Positions 3,505-26,128 are shown, numbered from the stretch's first letter. The stretch is DNA of 64,000 nt from an uncultured Bacteriovoracaceae bacterium (GCA_964572865.1 CAZNGN010000008.1:31561-95560), one strand, 5' to 3'. Translations and numbers: made by a program. Notes: generated by a model from the sequence alone, not told the origin.

Positions 3505-4785
3505 ATGAAATACTTTATTTTTATTTTAATATTTATTTCTCATTCTGTTTTTGCTCAATGCAAAAAGCAAACGACTAAAATTGAAAAATTAGAAAGTTTT
3601 GCAAATTTAAATTTAAATTATGGATGTCTAGGAGCCTATGTTGCAAATGAATTAAAAGAATATCATCCCGATCGAAATATTAATGGTGAAAAATTAGCAG
3701 AAAATGTAGCAGCGTGGGCACAAGAAAATACTAAAAAAGAGAATTGGTTTACAGATATTAGAGATTCTTTTAAATCAAGAATGAAAGCGGGTGCAACTCT
3801 TCTGCCGCGTTTATGGAATGGTTCACTTATTTCATATGATCAAGATCAAAATGATATTCAAAAATTAAGAAAATGGCTTTTGAGCACAAAAGATTTATCT
3901 GTAACCCCTGATCAGCTGATTAAACATGCATTAGCAATTTCTGAAGGAAACATCGAGCGTGCGATTACAATGTGTTATAATCACTTTTTAGTTGAAGGTG
4001 CTGTGGGTGTAAACGCAATTGAACGTGACACTCGTTGGTATGTAATGAAAATGACTGACATCACTGGAGAGAGAGAAGTTTTTGATGATATTGGCCACAA
4101 AGTGAATGGGCAGTATAAAAAATTCGGAAGAGGAGATTTGTATTCAGCATATTATCATTTTTTTGCAACCGCATTGCATTCGTATATTCGTGAAGAAAGT
4201 TCTGTCAGCTTAAGATTGCCAACATCAACTTATTCTTGGCTTGAGGAGTCTCAGTGGAATAAATCGATGGAGGATAAATTAAAACGTAAACAAATTGATG
4301 AAGAAGGAGCTGAGTTTGGAAAAAACTTAGCTGAACTATTAAAAAAAGATGAGAAAGTAAAAGTAAATGGAAAATACATAGAAGACAGACCCGATCTTTA
4401 TGGTGAAAAGTGGGCTTTGAAAGAAGGACAACATCCAAGAGATTTTAATACAGACAATAAAACTTATAATTATCCTACTGCTTTAGAAGAAGTCACAATT
4501 CTTAAGAAACTAATGCAAAATGAAAAATACTATAAAAAATATTTTAATTGTTACGCAGATCATTTAAGAGGTAGCGATAATCAGTACATCATTTTATCTG
4601 TCGTAGAAACTTTGTCACAAGATCGTGATTTGAAAACTGGAAAAATTAAAAAAGATTCCTATGATCTTTTAAAGAAAATGAGTCAAAAGGGCTACAGTGT
4701 TGTGAAGAAGATGGCCCAATGTGTTCTAACTGAAAAAACATTAGAAGAGTGTGAAAAAGCAAATCGCCCAACCAATCTTGAATAA
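3505..4785 (+). CDS. Secreted hypothetical protein, 426 aa
   Basis: Clear signal peptide (MKYFIFILIFISHSVFA) and a long ORF. Divergent from the cytochrome gene. No family recognised. Confidence 0.5.
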   Translation: MKYFIFILIFISHSVFAQCKKQTTKIEKLESFANLNLNYGCLGAYVANELKEYHPDRNINGEKLAENVAAWAQENTKKENWFTDIRDSFKSRMKAGATLLPRLWNGSLISYDQDQNDIQKLRKWLLSTKDLSVTPDQLIKHALAISEGNIERAITMCYNHFLVEGAVGVNAIERDTRWYVMKMTDITGEREVFDDIGHKVNGQYKKFGRGDLYSAYYHFFATALHSYIREESSVSLRLPTSTYSWLEESQWNKSMEDKLKRKQIDEEGAEFGKNLAELLKKDEKVKVNGKYIEDRPDLYGEKWALKEGQHPRDFNTDNKTYNYPTALEEVTILKKLMQNEKYYKKYFNCYADHLRGSDNQYIILSVVETLSQDRDLKTGKIKKDSYDLLKKMSQKGYSVVKKMAQCVLTEKTLEECEKANRPTNLE

Positions 4786-24572: not shown

Positions 24573-25031
24573 TTAAATATTTTTAACAAGTAATGTACGT
24601 TGGTTGTCTTTAAAGCCAAGTTTTTGGTAAAACTTCTTAGTTCTGCGATTATTTTTGGTTACTTCAAGTCTAAGTGTGTTTATTCTTTCTTTTTTGCAGA
24701 CTTCAAATGCTTTTTTAATTGCAAGAGTGCCGATTCCTAGACCGCGATGTTGCTTTAAAATAAATAATTCATCTATAAATGCTTCACGACCTCCACACTC
24801 TAAGCTAAATCCAAAGCCAAGTGCCATATAACCTATTAAATTTGTATTATTTAGATAAATTCCTAAAATTAATCCAAAAGATTGATGCTTTAAAAGTTGT
24901 TTTAAAGCGTGTTGTGCTCGTTTTAAATCCCATGAAAGAAGATCAAATTGATAAAATTGTTCCATCAATAGGATAATATTTTGATCAATCTTAGATTTTT
25001 TATTCAATTTTAATTTTTTAAACGTGATCAT
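24573..25031 (-). CDS. GNAT-family N-acetyltransferase
   Basis: QHRGLGIGTLAIKKAFE...FYQKLGF acetyl-CoA binding motif A. 152 aa. No evident SD before the ATG at 25031. Confidence 0.7.
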   Translation of the reverse strand: MITFKKLKLNKKSKIDQNIILLMEQFYQFDLLSWDLKRAQHALKQLLKHQSFGLILGIYLNNTNLIGYMALGFGFSLECGGREAFIDELFILKQHRGLGIGTLAIKKAFEVCKKERINTLRLEVTKNNRRTKKFYQKLGFKDNQRTLLVKNI

Positions 25032-25066
25032 GAATATTCAAGCCATTTCGTTTTTTTAATTATGAA

Positions 25067-25103
25067 CAAAAAAAAACGAGCCAACTGATTTCAGAGGGCT
25101 CGT
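25067..25103 (-). terminator. Rho-independent terminator between the poly-Lys micro-ORF and the GNAT gene
   Basis: On the minus-strand RNA the sequence is ACGAGCC-CUCUGAAAUCAGUU-GGCUCGU followed by UUUUUUUUU, a 7-bp stem with a 9-U tract. Confidence 0.7.
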
Positions 25104-25106
25104 CGT

Positions 25107-25127
25107 AAAACACTTTGCGAGTGTTTT
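25107..25127 (-). promoter_or_regulatory. Perfect 8-bp hairpin (AAAACACU-CGCAA-AGUGUUUU) between the micro-ORF stop and the terminator
   Basis: The inverted repeat is seen directly. The position suggests a leader-region structure. Confidence 0.4.
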
Positions 25128-25143
25128 GAAATAGAAAAAATAC

Positions 25144-25194
25144 TTATTTCTTAGATTTTTTCTTAGCTTTTTTCTTTGCTTTTTTCTTAGCCAT
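25144..25194 (-). CDS. 16-codon poly-lysine micro-ORF (MAKKKAKKKAKKKSKK), a candidate leader peptide or tiny polycationic peptide
   Basis: GGAGG (plus 25201-25205) 6 nt upstream of the ATG. Three 12-nt repeats AAGAAAAAAGCW. TAA stop, followed by the hairpin and terminator. Confidence 0.35.
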   Translation of the reverse strand: MAKKKAKKKAKKKSKK

Positions 25195-25405
25195 TGAAGG
25201 CCTCCTTTTGGTTTTTGTGCTGTAGAGAGTCCGTTCTCATCAGCACGTTTAGTACTGCAACTTTACGTCTTCCTAATAAAACTTGATGACTTACATATAT
25301 GTTACCTAAAAGTTTCAAAAATCAAAATTTTTTTTCATAATTATGCATTTTTTTTCCTAGTGAATGTTACTTAAATGAGAAAAAATTAGAAAAAATGGTT
25401 TTTTT

Positions 25406-26128
25406 GTGATGAAAATGGTGATTATGAAGAAAAAATTCTCGATTTTAATTCTATTTTTGATGTTCAATTACATTTTTGCTGAAGAAAAAGATGCAAAAGT
25501 AGTTCAGAAAGAAGAAAAAGTTACTCAAAGTGATGAAAAATCAAAAATTTCGCCAATGAAAGGTACATTATTTGAGTTTTTGAAGAAAAAATATGGTTCT
25601 ACAACCACTTTGAAAGCAAATTTTGTTCAAATACAAAAAAATAAAATGATGGGATCAGAAAAAAAATCAGAAGGCGTGCTCGAAATCAAACGTCCAGACA
25701 AATTTCGTTGGGACACACTCAAGCCAGATCCAACTTTGTTACTTTCGAACGGAAAAAAAATAATTTATTACACTCCACCCTTTCATGAAGGTGAAAAAGG
25801 ACAAGTGATTTTCAAAAAATCAGCAGATGTGCAATCAAAATTGGCCATTGATTTACTCTCAGGTAGTGCCAACTTAAAACAAGACTTTAAACCTAAAAAA
25901 ATCGCTGATAGACACTACGAGTTAATTCCGATCAATAAAAACCTTGGTGATATCAATAAGATAGAGCTTTATATTGATCCTAAGGCCAATTTAGTCTATA
26001 AGGTCGTATTACAACACACCACAGAAAATGAGACGGAAATTGAACTACAAAACGTTCAACTAGCTGAAAAAATTGAAGAGAATCGATTTGAATTTCAAGT
26101 TCCGCCAAACACCGAAGAGATAAAGTAG
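25406..26128 (+). CDS. lolA: Outer-membrane lipoprotein carrier protein LolA-like
   Basis: Signal peptide. LKANFVQIQKNKMMGSEKKSEGVLEIKRPDKFRW matches the LolA family core. The start may be an internal ATG at about 25424. Confidence 0.6.
   Translation: MMKMVIMKKKFSILILFLMFNYIFAEEKDAKVVQKEEKVTQSDEKSKISPMKGTLFEFLKKKYGSTTTLKANFVQIQKNKMMGSEKKSEGVLEIKRPDKFRWDTLKPDPTLLLSNGKKIIYYTPPFHEGEKGQVIFKKSADVQSKLAIDLLSGSANLKQDFKPKKIADRHYELIPINKNLGDINKIELYIDPKANLVYKVVLQHTTENETEIELQNVQLAEKIEENRFEFQVPPNTEEIK

What the first reader, a model, noticed from the sequence alone, without database searches (positions are those of the whole stretch)
25060..25215. Poly-lysine micro-ORF with a strong RBS, a hairpin and a textbook terminator, about 35 nt upstream of a GNAT acetyltransferase
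On the minus strand a GGAGG Shine-Dalgarno sits 6 nt before an ATG that opens a 16-codon ORF, MAKKKAKKKAKKKSKK (25194..25144). The ORF is built from three 12-nt AAGAAAAAAGCW repeats and ends in TAA. An 8-bp hairpin (25107-25127) follows 16 nt later, then a 7-bp stem with a nine-U tract (25067-25103). The GNAT gene starts only about 35 nt further on at 25031 and has no Shine-Dalgarno of its own. This layout matches leader-peptide attenuators such as trp/his, ermC/cat, and the aminoglycoside-responsive leaders of aac/aad genes, and runs of AAA codons are known ribosome-slowing sequences. The micro-ORF may therefore gate transcription or translation of the acetyltransferase in response to Lys-tRNA, polyamines or ribosome-targeting compounds. 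Alternatively it may encode a free polycationic peptide, for example a substrate or partner of the acetyltransferase or a ribosome-associated micro-protein. I could not find a clean antiterminator pairing by eye.
Basis: partly seen in the sequence, partly recalled or inferred. Interest (0 to 1): 0.78.

Follow-up and report, generated by a model that had tools for sequence, protein, structure and literature searches.

The report
Stand-alone polylysine micro-gene, not GNAT leader
The 16-codon Lys-rich ORF is real and conserved, but it is a self-contained mini-gene with its own promoter-like block, ribosome-binding site and terminator, one of a widespread and apparently unannotated class of 10-30-residue polylysine peptide genes, and not a leader that controls the neighbouring acetyltransferase.

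Summary
These are AAGGAGG 6 nt before the ATG, MAKKKAKKKAKKKSKK at 25194..25144 on the minus strand, a 12-nt repeat, an 8-bp hairpin, and a terminator with nine U. The GNAT-attenuator reading fails comparative tests. Five related lineages (LolA 48-67% identical) carry the same micro-ORF (16-22 aa), always divergent from lolA-yajQ-rimO. None has a GNAT downstream, and in two the downstream gene is convergent. GNAT homologues elsewhere sit next to acetyl-CoA synthetase and CinA genes with no micro-ORF nearby. No antiterminator pairing exists. The ORF evolves like a coding sequence: all indels are multiples of three, Lys codons change synonymously, and A-runs never exceed six. A pattern scan of reference genomes found 83 similar micro-ORFs across many bacterial phyla and DPANN archaea. 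Of these, 75 have SD-like cores (11% at random positions) and 40 have terminator-like sites (2.4% at random). No Pfam, NCBIfam, Rfam, PDB or literature match was found. My best reading is a monocistronic gene for a highly cationic micropeptide that binds RNA, ribosomes or DNA. That function is inferred, not shown.

The parts
25289..25325 (-). Promoter-like block: TTGATT/TTGAAA ... GTAACAT ... TGTAAGT
   Evidence: The block is nearly identical in L001 and recognisably conserved in L009, L004, L008 and L005 as TTGGAA/TTGGAT-16/17-(G)TAACAT. It overlaps back-to-back with a plus-strand TTCAAA-16-CATAAT site at 25314-25341, in front of lolA. Promoter function is inferred and the transcription start is not mapped.
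25195..25288 (-). 5' leader of about 95 nt
   Evidence: The leader aligns with those of L001 and L009. It is much shorter, about 30 nt, in L004 and L008.
25217..25246 (-). Leader stem-loop GUGCUG-AU-GAGA-ACGGAC-UCUC-UA-CAGCAC, with loop AYGGAY
   Evidence: The stem-loop is predicted independently in the window, L001 and L009. On the three-sequence alignment, 90% of cells are paired and 3 pairs carry compensatory changes. Slid controls give 32-67% paired and 0 compensatory pairs. Only three sequences are available, and the function is unknown.
25201..25207 (-). Shine-Dalgarno sequence AAGGAGG, 6 nt before the ATG
   Evidence: Seen. AAGGAGGCC is conserved in all six LolA-linked lineages. GGAGG is rare upstream of genes in this window, at 2 of 51 long ORFs.
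25144..25194 (-). 16-codon ORF encoding MAKKKAKKKAKKKSKK (stop codon included)
   Evidence: Orthologues of 16-22 aa occur in L001/L002, L005/L006, L009 and L004, and a copy cut off at the contig end occurs in L008. They differ by frame-preserving indels and synonymous AAA/AAG and GCN changes. AAG makes up 4 of 11 Lys codons, against 11.6% genome-wide. The longest A-run is 6 in all five complete orthologues.
25107..25127 (-). 3' UTR hairpin 1 (8 bp, loop CGCAA)
   Evidence: Seen. A hairpin at the equivalent position, with a different sequence, is present in L001, L009 and L005. It is absent in L004 and L115.
25068..25104 (-). Intrinsic terminator: GC-rich stem followed by nine U
   Evidence: Every LolA-linked relative has a terminator after the micro-ORF.
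25406..26128 (+). lolA, the conserved divergent neighbour (a synteny marker, not shown to be functionally linked)
   Evidence: Identified by Pfam LolA and TIGR00547. The arrangement of micro-ORF divergent from lolA-yajQ-rimO is conserved in all related loci.

Best explanation
Positions 25325-25068 on the minus strand form a self-contained, monocistronic transcription unit.

**Layout.** In order, the unit consists of:
- a promoter-like block;
- a leader of about 95 nt with one conserved stem-loop;
- a strong Shine-Dalgarno sequence;
- a 16-codon ORF;
- a stabilising hairpin followed by an intrinsic terminator.

**Product.** The unit encodes the peptide MAKKKAKKKAKKKSKK. After the expected removal of the N-terminal Met before Ala, this is a 15-mer with a net charge of about +11.

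**Evolution.** The gene is built from a slippage-prone 12-nt unit (KKKA). This explains the length variation of 16-22 aa among close relatives and 10-32 aa across phyla.

**Class.** It belongs to a widespread class of MA(A/T)KKK(A/T)KKK... micro-ORFs that gene callers miss.

**Proposed function.** The peptide is too short and too charged to fold on its own. I infer that it acts as a diffusible polycation that binds phosphate backbones. The most likely target is rRNA or the ribosome, in the manner of eL41, bS22, bL37 and bTHX. Nucleoid DNA is the alternative target, in the manner of histone-H1-like AKKK-repeat proteins.

**What is shown and what is inferred.**
- Shown: the anatomy, the conservation, the coding-type evolution, independence from the GNAT gene, and the breadth of the class.
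- Inferred: that the ORF is translated, that the peptide is abundant, and its molecular target.
For: **Conservation with changing neighbours.**
- Orthologous micro-ORFs occur in L001/L002 (MAKKKAKKKAKKKAKK), L005/L006 (MAAKKKAKKKATKKKAKKK), L009 (MAKKKATKKKASKKKATKKKKK), L004 (MAAKKKAAKKKTKKKVAKKKKK) and L008 (cut off at the contig end).
- All carry the SD AAGGAGGCC, all with readable downstream sequence (every lineage except contig-truncated L008) have their own terminator, and all lie divergent to lolA.
- The downstream genes differ, and two are convergent.

**Coding signature.**
- All indels among the orthologues are multiples of 3 nt.
- Lys and Ala codons vary synonymously.
- The longest A-run is exactly 6 in all five complete orthologues, despite 11-14 Lys codons.
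- AAG makes up 36-57% of their Lys codons, against 11.6% in 51 long ORFs of the window.
- In an independent Acidobacteriota family (12 loci), 9 of 10 variable ungapped ORF columns are third codon positions. ORF gaps there are only 3 or 6 nt, whereas UTR gaps are 1, 2, 4, 5 or 8 nt. The promoter TTGACA-17-TATACA, the SD and the terminator are all conserved.

**Signals across the class.**
- Of 120 genome hits to the pattern, 83 are ORFs of 35 aa or fewer.
- 75 of the 83 have an SD-like core, against 11% at random positions. 63 of the 83 have a 5-mer SD, against 103 of 4150 at random.
- 40 of the 83 have a hairpin followed by a T-run within 130 nt downstream, against 10 of 415 at random.
- Most of the 83 lie in intergenic DNA.

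**Expression signals in the window.** The micro-ORF has one of only 7 AGGAGG sites in the 64 kb.

**Precedent.** Tiny, very basic, unannotated ribosomal proteins are still being found. An example is Borrelia bS22, which is 30 aa and 61% K/R and sits in an rRNA pocket (PMC10618245).
Against: - There is no direct evidence of transcription, translation or peptide stability.
- Low-complexity poly-Lys sequences could be convergent rather than homologous across phyla, so the 'class' may be several unrelated inventions.
- Known ribosomal micro-proteins have specific, non-repetitive sequences and fixed lengths. These peptides vary from 10 to 32 aa, which fits a non-specific electrostatic role better than a defined ribosomal site.
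- No hit to any bS22, bL37 or THX model or to any PDB chain was found. Bias filters make such searches insensitive for this kind of sequence.
- AAR codons are also ARN triplets, the Hfq-type A-rich motif. Some of the nucleotide conservation could therefore serve an RNA-level function.
The phyletic distribution is therefore a sample, not a census.
Confidence: 0.6

Rival explanations
1. Leader-peptide attenuator. Ribosome speed on the Lys codons decides whether transcription stops at the U-tract or reads through into the GNAT gene.
For: A short ORF with a run of one codon type, followed by hairpins and a terminator, lies 36 nt before a same-strand gene that has no SD and no clear promoter of its own.
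Against: - There is no alternative (antiterminator) pairing. The two hairpins are the MFE structure and hold 43% of the ensemble.
- The stop codon lies 16 nt before hairpin 1, so a terminating ribosome would not melt the terminator.
- The micro-ORF and terminator are conserved without a GNAT gene in five lineages, two of which have a convergent downstream gene.
- GNAT homologues elsewhere have no micro-ORF nearby.
- Terminators follow such ORFs in many phyla with unrelated neighbours.
- The contexts contain no lysine-metabolism genes.
Confidence: 0.04
2. The functional product is the RNA. In this view the transcript is a small RNA of about 250 nt, or a dual-function RNA. Its A-rich (ARN)n tract and GGA-containing leader loop bind or titrate an RNA-binding protein such as Hfq or CsrA, and the ORF is secondary.
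For: - The leader hairpin is conserved with 3 compensatory pairs and an AYGGAY loop.
- The 3' hairpins are strong.
- The transcript is short and has its own terminator, like many sRNAs.
- AAR repeats are also ARN repeats, which follows directly from the sequence.
Against: - ATG, SD, reading frame and stop codon are preserved across very divergent nucleotide sequences and phyla.
- Indels are strictly in threes inside the ORF but not in the UTRs.
- The leader hairpin is absent in L004 and L008, which keep the ORF.
- No Rfam family matches.
Confidence: 0.12
3. Translation-coupled sensor or cis-regulator unrelated to the GNAT gene. Translating the Lys run reports on tRNA-Lys or ribosome status. 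It then controls the stability of its own mRNA, or the overlapping divergent lolA promoter, and the peptide is a by-product.
For: - The divergent arrangement with lolA-yajQ-rimO is conserved, and the -35-like elements overlap.
- Consecutive Lys codons are known to slow ribosomes (general knowledge).
Against: - Similar micro-ORFs in other phyla have entirely different neighbours, so linkage to lolA is specific to this lineage.
- Codon choice avoids long A-runs, which argues for smooth and faithful translation rather than programmed stalling.
- No mechanism links translation on one strand to promoter activity on the other.
Confidence: 0.08
4. The ORF arose by chance in an A-rich intergenic repeat and has no function.
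For: The genome is AT-rich (about 33% GC), and the ORF is a low-complexity tandem repeat.
Against: - The pattern is expected 0.02 times in the window.
- The ORF is conserved with SD and terminator at LolA identities down to 48%.
- The substitution and indel pattern is that of a coding sequence.
Confidence: 0.02

Closest known systems
Tiny basic ribosomal proteins eL41, bS22, bL37 and bTHX
   Same: All are very short (24-33 aa) and extremely K/R-rich. Their genes are often unannotated and free-standing. They bind rRNA pockets electrostatically as single helices. Borrelia bS22 (30 aa, 61% K/R) was found only through cryo-EM density (PMC10618245).
   Different: The window peptide is shorter, at 16 aa (10-32 aa in the class). 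It is a pure (A/S/T)KKK repeat with no Arg and no hydrophobic anchor residues, and its length is variable. There is no sequence match to any such family or to any PDB chain. Ribosome association is untested.
Histone-H1-like lysine/alanine-repeat nucleoid proteins (for example chlamydial Hc1/Hc2, Pseudomonas AlgP, and the mycobacterial HupB C-terminal tail; named from general knowledge)
   Same: They share the AKKK/TKKK/VKKK repeat chemistry. The same genome scan found long proteins (50-290 aa) that begin with the identical MAKKKA(T)KKK motif, and HU-like proteins with such N-terminal tails.
   Different: Those proteins are roughly 4-20 times longer or are fused to a folded DNA-binding domain. 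The micro-ORF is a minimal stand-alone repeat with its own promoter-like block and terminator. DNA binding is untested.
Leader-peptide attenuators (trpL, hisL, pheL) and drug-inducible leaders (ermCL, catL)
   Same: They also have a short ORF enriched in one codon type, a strong SD and a downstream terminator hairpin.
   Different: The window locus has no antiterminator alternative, no conserved regulated gene downstream, and no sequestered SD or start codon of a downstream gene. Its codon choice avoids slippery A-runs.
Leader peptides with a function of their own, such as the 14-aa peTrpL of Sinorhizobium (bioRxiv 10.1101/606483, listed)
   Same: This shows that a peptide of about 14-16 aa encoded by a tiny bacterial ORF can itself be functional.
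   Different: peTrpL comes from a genuine trp attenuator and is not polycationic. The micro-ORF here is not part of an attenuator.

Membership tests
Ribosome-mediated transcription attenuator (trp/his type) | Short leader ORF enriched in the codons of the sensed amino acid | tested here: met
   11 of the 16 codons are Lys.
Ribosome-mediated transcription attenuator (trp/his type) | Mutually exclusive antiterminator and terminator structures, whose choice depends on ribosome position | tested here: not met
   The 3' region folds into two independent hairpins, which are the MFE structure and hold 43% of the ensemble. The 3' arm of hairpin 1 (AGUGUUUU) has no complementarity to the 5' arm of the terminator (GACGAGCC). 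The stop codon lies 16 nt upstream of hairpin 1.
Ribosome-mediated transcription attenuator (trp/his type) | Conserved linkage to downstream genes whose function relates to the sensed amino acid | tested here: not met
   The downstream gene differs in every lineage and is convergent in L001 and L009. GNAT homologues lack the micro-ORF. No lysine-pathway genes are present.
Translational attenuation leaders (ermC/cat type) | The SD or start codon of the regulated gene is sequestered in a hairpin that a stalled ribosome opens | tested here: not met
   The GNAT gene has no SD. Its start codon at 25031 lies 36 nt beyond the U-tract and outside both hairpins.
Small basic ribosomal proteins (bS22, bL37, bTHX, eL41) | Sequence match to the family model or to a chain in a solved ribosome structure | tested here: not met
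   NCBIfam, Pfam and PDB searches with six class members of 20-28 aa gave no hits even at E <= 10. These searches are insensitive for low-complexity peptides, and the 16-aa peptide itself is below the tools' length limit.
Small basic ribosomal proteins (bS22, bL37, bTHX, eL41) | Very short, strongly basic polypeptide encoded by a free-standing gene with good expression signals | tested here: met
   The peptide is 69% Lys. The gene has an AAGGAGG SD, a promoter-like block and its own terminator.
Small basic ribosomal proteins (bS22, bL37, bTHX, eL41) | Stoichiometric presence in purified ribosomes | not testable with these tools
   This needs cryo-EM or top-down mass spectrometry of ribosomes from a host organism.
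Histone-H1-like K/A-repeat nucleoid proteins | Tandem (A/P/T/V)KKK-type repeats | tested here: met
   The peptide is (AKKK)3-SKK, encoded by a 12-nt tandem repeat.
Histone-H1-like K/A-repeat nucleoid proteins | A protein of tens to hundreds of residues that binds and compacts DNA | tested here: inconclusive
   The length of 16 aa is far below described members. Longer MAKKKA... proteins do exist in other genomes. DNA binding is not testable here.
Any curated RNA family (Rfam 15) | Score at or above the family's gathering threshold | tested here: not met
   There were 0 hits in the whole window. Only sub-threshold chance-level hits fell in 24900-25500. No hit overlapped a micro-ORF in 19 related loci.

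The most novel reading that the evidence does not exclude
MA(A/T)KKK(A/T)KKK... micro-ORFs of 10-30 codons are a widespread class of protein-coding genes that has been systematically overlooked. They are among the shortest conserved genes known. They occur in Acidobacteriota, Verrucomicrobiota, Planctomycetota, Methylomirabilota, Nitrospirota, Bdellovibrionota, some Proteobacteria, CPR bacteria, DPANN archaea and some phages. They encode an abundant polylysine micropeptide that is an unrecognised component or counter-ion of ribosomes or nucleoids. Such genes escape gene callers because of the length cut-off. The peptides escape tryptic proteomics because trypsin cuts after every Lys.
Probability: 0.3. 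Interest if true: 0.85.

Novelty: new variant of a known kind. Interest (0 to 1): 0.6.

Why it matters
If these ORFs are translated, many poorly studied phyla make a genetically encoded oligolysine. That would be a new minimal form of the small basic proteins that neutralise RNA or DNA charge. It would add a component to ribosome or nucleoid biology that current annotation pipelines and trypsin-based proteomics cannot see.

It would also supply a clean, compact test case: a promoter-like block, SD, a 12-22-codon ORF and a terminator, conserved with coding-type evolution. This could be used to benchmark small-ORF discovery.

For this window specifically, the result removes a tempting but unsupported regulatory link to the GNAT acetyltransferase.

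Tried and rejected
- **Genome scan with LolA alone.** It found no relatives. The window's lineage is not among the GTDB species representatives, and I could not establish its taxonomy. P0001 is not on record. The only other copy is an identical Logan contig.
- **Rfam.** The gathering-threshold search of the whole window and the permissive search of 24900-25500 gave nothing meaningful. The isrC and wcaG hits only reflect the terminator hairpins.
- **Family and structure searches.** NCBIfam, Pfam and PDB searches with class members gave no hits.
- **Metagenome scan.** A scan with an SD-specific pattern returned only two further micro-ORFs (L133 and L138) and several ordinary genes. It did not enlarge the LolA-linked family.
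- **tRNA-Lys link.** I tested whether micro-ORFs sit next to tRNA-Lys. In Saccharibacteria the downstream tRNAs are Met and Asp, so I rejected this.
- **Microviridae J proteins.** I tested whether the phage poly-K micro-ORFs are J-type proteins of Microviridae. The contigs encode proteins that look tailed-phage-like by eye (no Pfam or PHROG scan was run on them), so I set the idea aside.
- **bS23 and bS24.** I checked whether these newly named ribosomal proteins are such peptides. They are not.
- **Literature.** Searches for the peptide strings and for polylysine leader or small-ORF concepts found nothing relevant.
- **Promoter.** A clean sigma-70 promoter could not be assigned in the window. 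The best candidates have a 15-nt spacer or a weak -10, and the simple scan did not flag it. The promoter is therefore inferred from conservation only.

Full report
**1. Observation**

On the minus strand the window reads AAAAGGAGGCCTTCA-ATG GCT AAG AAA AAA GCA AAG AAA AAA GCT AAG AAA AAA TCT AAG AAA TAA (25207-25144). This gives an AAGGAGG Shine-Dalgarno sequence 6 nt before a 16-codon ORF that encodes MAKKKAKKKAKKKSKK.

Tandem Repeats Finder reports a 12-nt period with 4.1 copies and 86% matches. The KKKxKKK DNA pattern occurs nowhere else in the 64 kb, against 0.02 expected.

Sixteen nt after the stop codon lies an 8-bp hairpin (25127-25107). It is followed by a GC-rich stem and nine U (25104-25068). 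These two hairpins are the minimum-free-energy fold at -23.2 kcal/mol. The z-score is -4.3, none of 200 shuffles folded as well, and the fold holds 43% of the ensemble.

The GNAT gene (Pfam Acetyltransf_1) starts at 25031 without an SD. AGGAGG occurs 7 times in the window. Only 2 of 51 long ORFs have GGAGG upstream, and this is the only K/R-rich mini-ORF with an SD. An independent assembly from another sequencing run is identical over 401 nt.

**2. Relatives of the locus**

The neighbours are GNAT (minus strand), then divergently lolA, yajQ and a rimO-type radical-SAM gene (plus strand), with nadA beyond the GNAT gene. LolA has few relatives. Contigs that encode them were fetched.

In every one that includes the region upstream of lolA, the same micro-ORF lies divergently upstream of lolA-yajQ-rimO:
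- L001/L002: MAKKKAKKKAKKKAKK
- L005/L006: MAAKKKAKKKATKKKAKKK
- L009: MAKKKATKKKASKKKATKKKKK
- L004: MAAKKKAAKKKTKKKVAKKKKK
- L008: cut off at the contig end

All have the SD AAGGAGGCC. All with readable downstream sequence (every lineage except contig-truncated L008) have a terminator after the ORF. A promoter-like block, TTGNNN-15/17-(G)TAACAT, is also conserved.

A second hairpin between the stop codon and the terminator is present in the window, L001, L009 and L005, with unrelated sequences.

**3. The GNAT link fails from both sides**

None of the five related lineages has a GNAT gene downstream of the micro-ORF. In L001 and L009 the next gene is convergent. In L004 and L005 it is an unrelated gene on the same strand.

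From the other side, GNAT homologues at 44-48% identity lie next to acetyl-CoA synthetase and CinA genes. Their starts overlap or abut the preceding gene. None of those loci contains any K/R-rich mini-ORF.

There is also no antiterminator alternative. The attenuator reading is therefore rejected for the conserved element. Incidental read-through into the GNAT gene in this one genome cannot be excluded.

**4. The ORF evolves as a coding sequence**

Among the LolA-linked orthologues:
- all length differences are whole codons;
- Lys (AAA/AAG) and Ala (GCN) codons vary synonymously;
- the spacer residues stay small (A, S, T or V).

AAG makes up 36-57% of Lys codons in these ORFs, against 11.6% (171 of 1470) in the window's long ORFs. 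For the window alone, the probability of at least 4 AAG in 11 codons is 0.03. AAG is placed so that no A-run exceeds 6 in any of the five complete orthologues. This fits selection against slippery poly(A). It is the opposite of what a stalling device would need.

**5. A wider class**

I scanned one genome per GTDB species for ATGGC-N1-4-AARAARAAR-GC-N1-4-AARAARAAR.

Of the hits, 83 are ORFs of 35 aa or fewer. Examples are:
- MATKKKAKKKK(K)H in many Acidobacteriota;
- MAKKKAAKKKKK in Methylomirabilota;
- MAKKKAAKKKTAKKKRH in Udaeobacter;
- MAAKKKAAKKKAAKKKKQ in Reyranella;
- 20-24-aa forms in Bdellovibrionota, Oligoflexia and Planctomycetota;
- forms in CPR bacteria and DPANN archaea.

Signals around these 83 ORFs:
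- 75 have an SD-like core at -16..-4, against 11% of random positions.
- 63 have a 5-mer SD, against 103 of 4150 at random.
- 40 have a hairpin followed by a T-run within 130 nt downstream, against 10 of 415 at random.

Synteny is conserved within clades but differs between them, so there is no common operon partner.

One clade was examined in detail: 12 Acidobacteriota loci lying between a thiolase gene and a UvrD-like helicase gene (both labels read from the sequences by eye; no family scan was run). The whole unit is conserved there: TTGAC(A/T)-17-TATACA, two leader hairpins, the SD, the ORF, and a GGGGACGC/GCGTCCCC terminator. In the ORF, 9 of 10 variable ungapped columns are third codon positions. 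ORF gaps are 3 or 6 nt only, while UTR gaps are 1, 2, 4, 5 or 8 nt.

The other 37 hits are long AKKK-repeat (H1-like) proteins, HU-like proteins with such N-terminal tails, or unrelated proteins.

The same pattern in viral contigs served as a partial control. Only 39 of 120 hits were short, and only 16 of those had an SD. Many were C-terminal tails of longer ORFs. A set of phage micro-ORFs of 21-25 aa with GGAGG does exist there, however.

**6. Known families**

I found no match in Rfam, NCBIfam or Pfam, or among PDB chains. No paper in the held library contains these peptide strings or describes such ORFs.

The closest known things are the tiny basic ribosomal proteins eL41, bS22, bL37 and bTHX. 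Borrelia bS22 was unannotated until it was seen by cryo-EM (PMC10618245). The other close comparison is with histone-H1-like K/A-repeat nucleoid proteins. The locus works like these only by inference from composition. Membership is not shown.

**7. Mechanism proposed**

*Shown:*
- The locus is an autonomous, conserved unit with a strong SD and a terminator.
- The peptide sequence and reading frame are under purifying selection.
- The unit is independent of the GNAT gene.

*Inferred:*
- The unit is transcribed from the conserved promoter-like block.
- It is translated efficiently.
- The resulting 15-16-residue peptide, with a charge of about +11, binds polyanions. I favour rRNA or the ribosome as the target, with nucleoid DNA as the alternative.
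- The 12-nt repeat explains the length variation by slippage.
- Hairpin 1 plausibly protects the 3' end of the transcript.
- The leader stem-loop has an AYGGAY loop and 3 compensatory pairs in 3 sequences. It may be a regulatory protein-binding site (CsrA-like GGA) or an autoregulatory site. It is missing in L004 and L008.

**8. Verdict**

The finding is real. The element is a member of a broad and apparently undescribed class of polylysine micro-genes. Function remains inferential.

Interest is moderate to high, at 0.6. Novelty is a new variant of a known kind, namely very small basic nucleic-acid-binding proteins.

Noticed in passing
window 25289-25345: The micro-ORF's promoter-like block on the minus strand overlaps back-to-back with a plus-strand TTCAAA-16-CATAAT site at 25314-25341, in front of lolA. 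The same arrangement (TTCAAA-16-CATATT) is visible in L001. The two divergent units may therefore share or compete for one -35 region.
   Followed up: partly
window 25217-25246; L001 about 3655-3684; L009 about 760-790: A conserved leader stem-loop lies just upstream of the SD. It has an AYGGAY loop (GGA, like CsrA sites) and three compensatory base-pair changes in L009. It is absent from the short leaders of L004 and L008. A GAAUGGA string also lies next to the SD in the Acidobacteriota family.
   Followed up: partly
L140-L145 (GNAT homologues P0012, P0017, P0020): The closest homologues of the window's GNAT (44-48% identity) sit next to an acetyl-CoA synthetase gene and in several cases just before cinA. 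This suggests an Acs-linked protein acetyltransferase. In the window the gene has moved to a different context.
   Followed up: no
window 25029-25062: The GNAT gene has no SD. Its only promoter-like element is a CATAAT at 25062-25057, directly after the terminator's U-tract. A 2-codon mini-ORF (ATGGCTTGA, 25046-25038) lies in its short leader. How the GNAT gene is expressed is unresolved.
   Followed up: no
L021, L030, L037, L045, L051, L070, L075, L084, L106, L109, L121, L128: This Acidobacteriota family has a fully conserved mini transcription unit for MATKKKAKKKK(K)H, always ending in His. It consists of TTGACA-17-TATACA, two leader hairpins (one with compensatory changes GCAGU/ACUGC versus GCAAC/GUUGC), the SD, a 12-15-codon ORF and a terminator. 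It lies between a thiolase-like gene and a UvrD-like helicase gene (both identified by eye from the sequences, not by a family scan). A second Acidobacteriota family (MATKKKAKKKKH) sits in a different context.
   Followed up: partly
L078, L095, L108 (DPANN archaea); L042, L076 (Paceibacterota); L066, L122 (Saccharibacteria): Contexts are specific to each clade. In DPANN archaea the micro-ORF lies 81-137 nt downstream of a protein of about 560 aa that looks like glycyl-tRNA synthetase. In Paceibacterota it lies 70-111 nt upstream of secA. In Saccharibacteria it lies upstream of a tRNA-Met/tRNA-Asp cluster.
   Followed up: partly
L054, L077, L082, L085; L013, L018, L026, L032, L036, L052, L067, L081, L111: The same N-terminal motif MAKKKA(T)KKK begins HU/IHF-like proteins, as an N-terminal tail. 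It also begins long (50-290 aa) pure (A/T/V/P)KKK-repeat proteins in Planctomycetota, Verrucomicrobiota and Bdellovibrionota. This suggests a length continuum produced by repeat expansion.
   Followed up: no
L152, L157, L162, L164, L180, L215, L221, L229, L236 (IMG/VR contigs): Viral contigs that look like tailed-phage genomes (judged by eye from the largest ORFs) carry poly-Lys micro-ORFs of 21-25 aa with strong GGAGG sites, for example MAKKKKAKKKNKKKNKKKKKR. Many other viral hits to the pattern are only C-terminal tails of longer proteins.
   Followed up: partly
window 1-64000: No Rfam family reaches its gathering threshold anywhere in the 64 kb on either strand. This means no tRNA, rRNA or riboswitch. 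GC content is about 29-40%. The lineage has no close relative among GTDB species representatives under the LolA test.
   Followed up: partly
L047 7271-7501: Two Acido-Lenti-1 RNA matches (50.3 and 47.5 bits) lie on opposite strands about 4.5 kb from that locus's micro-ORF. They are unrelated to it.
   Followed up: no
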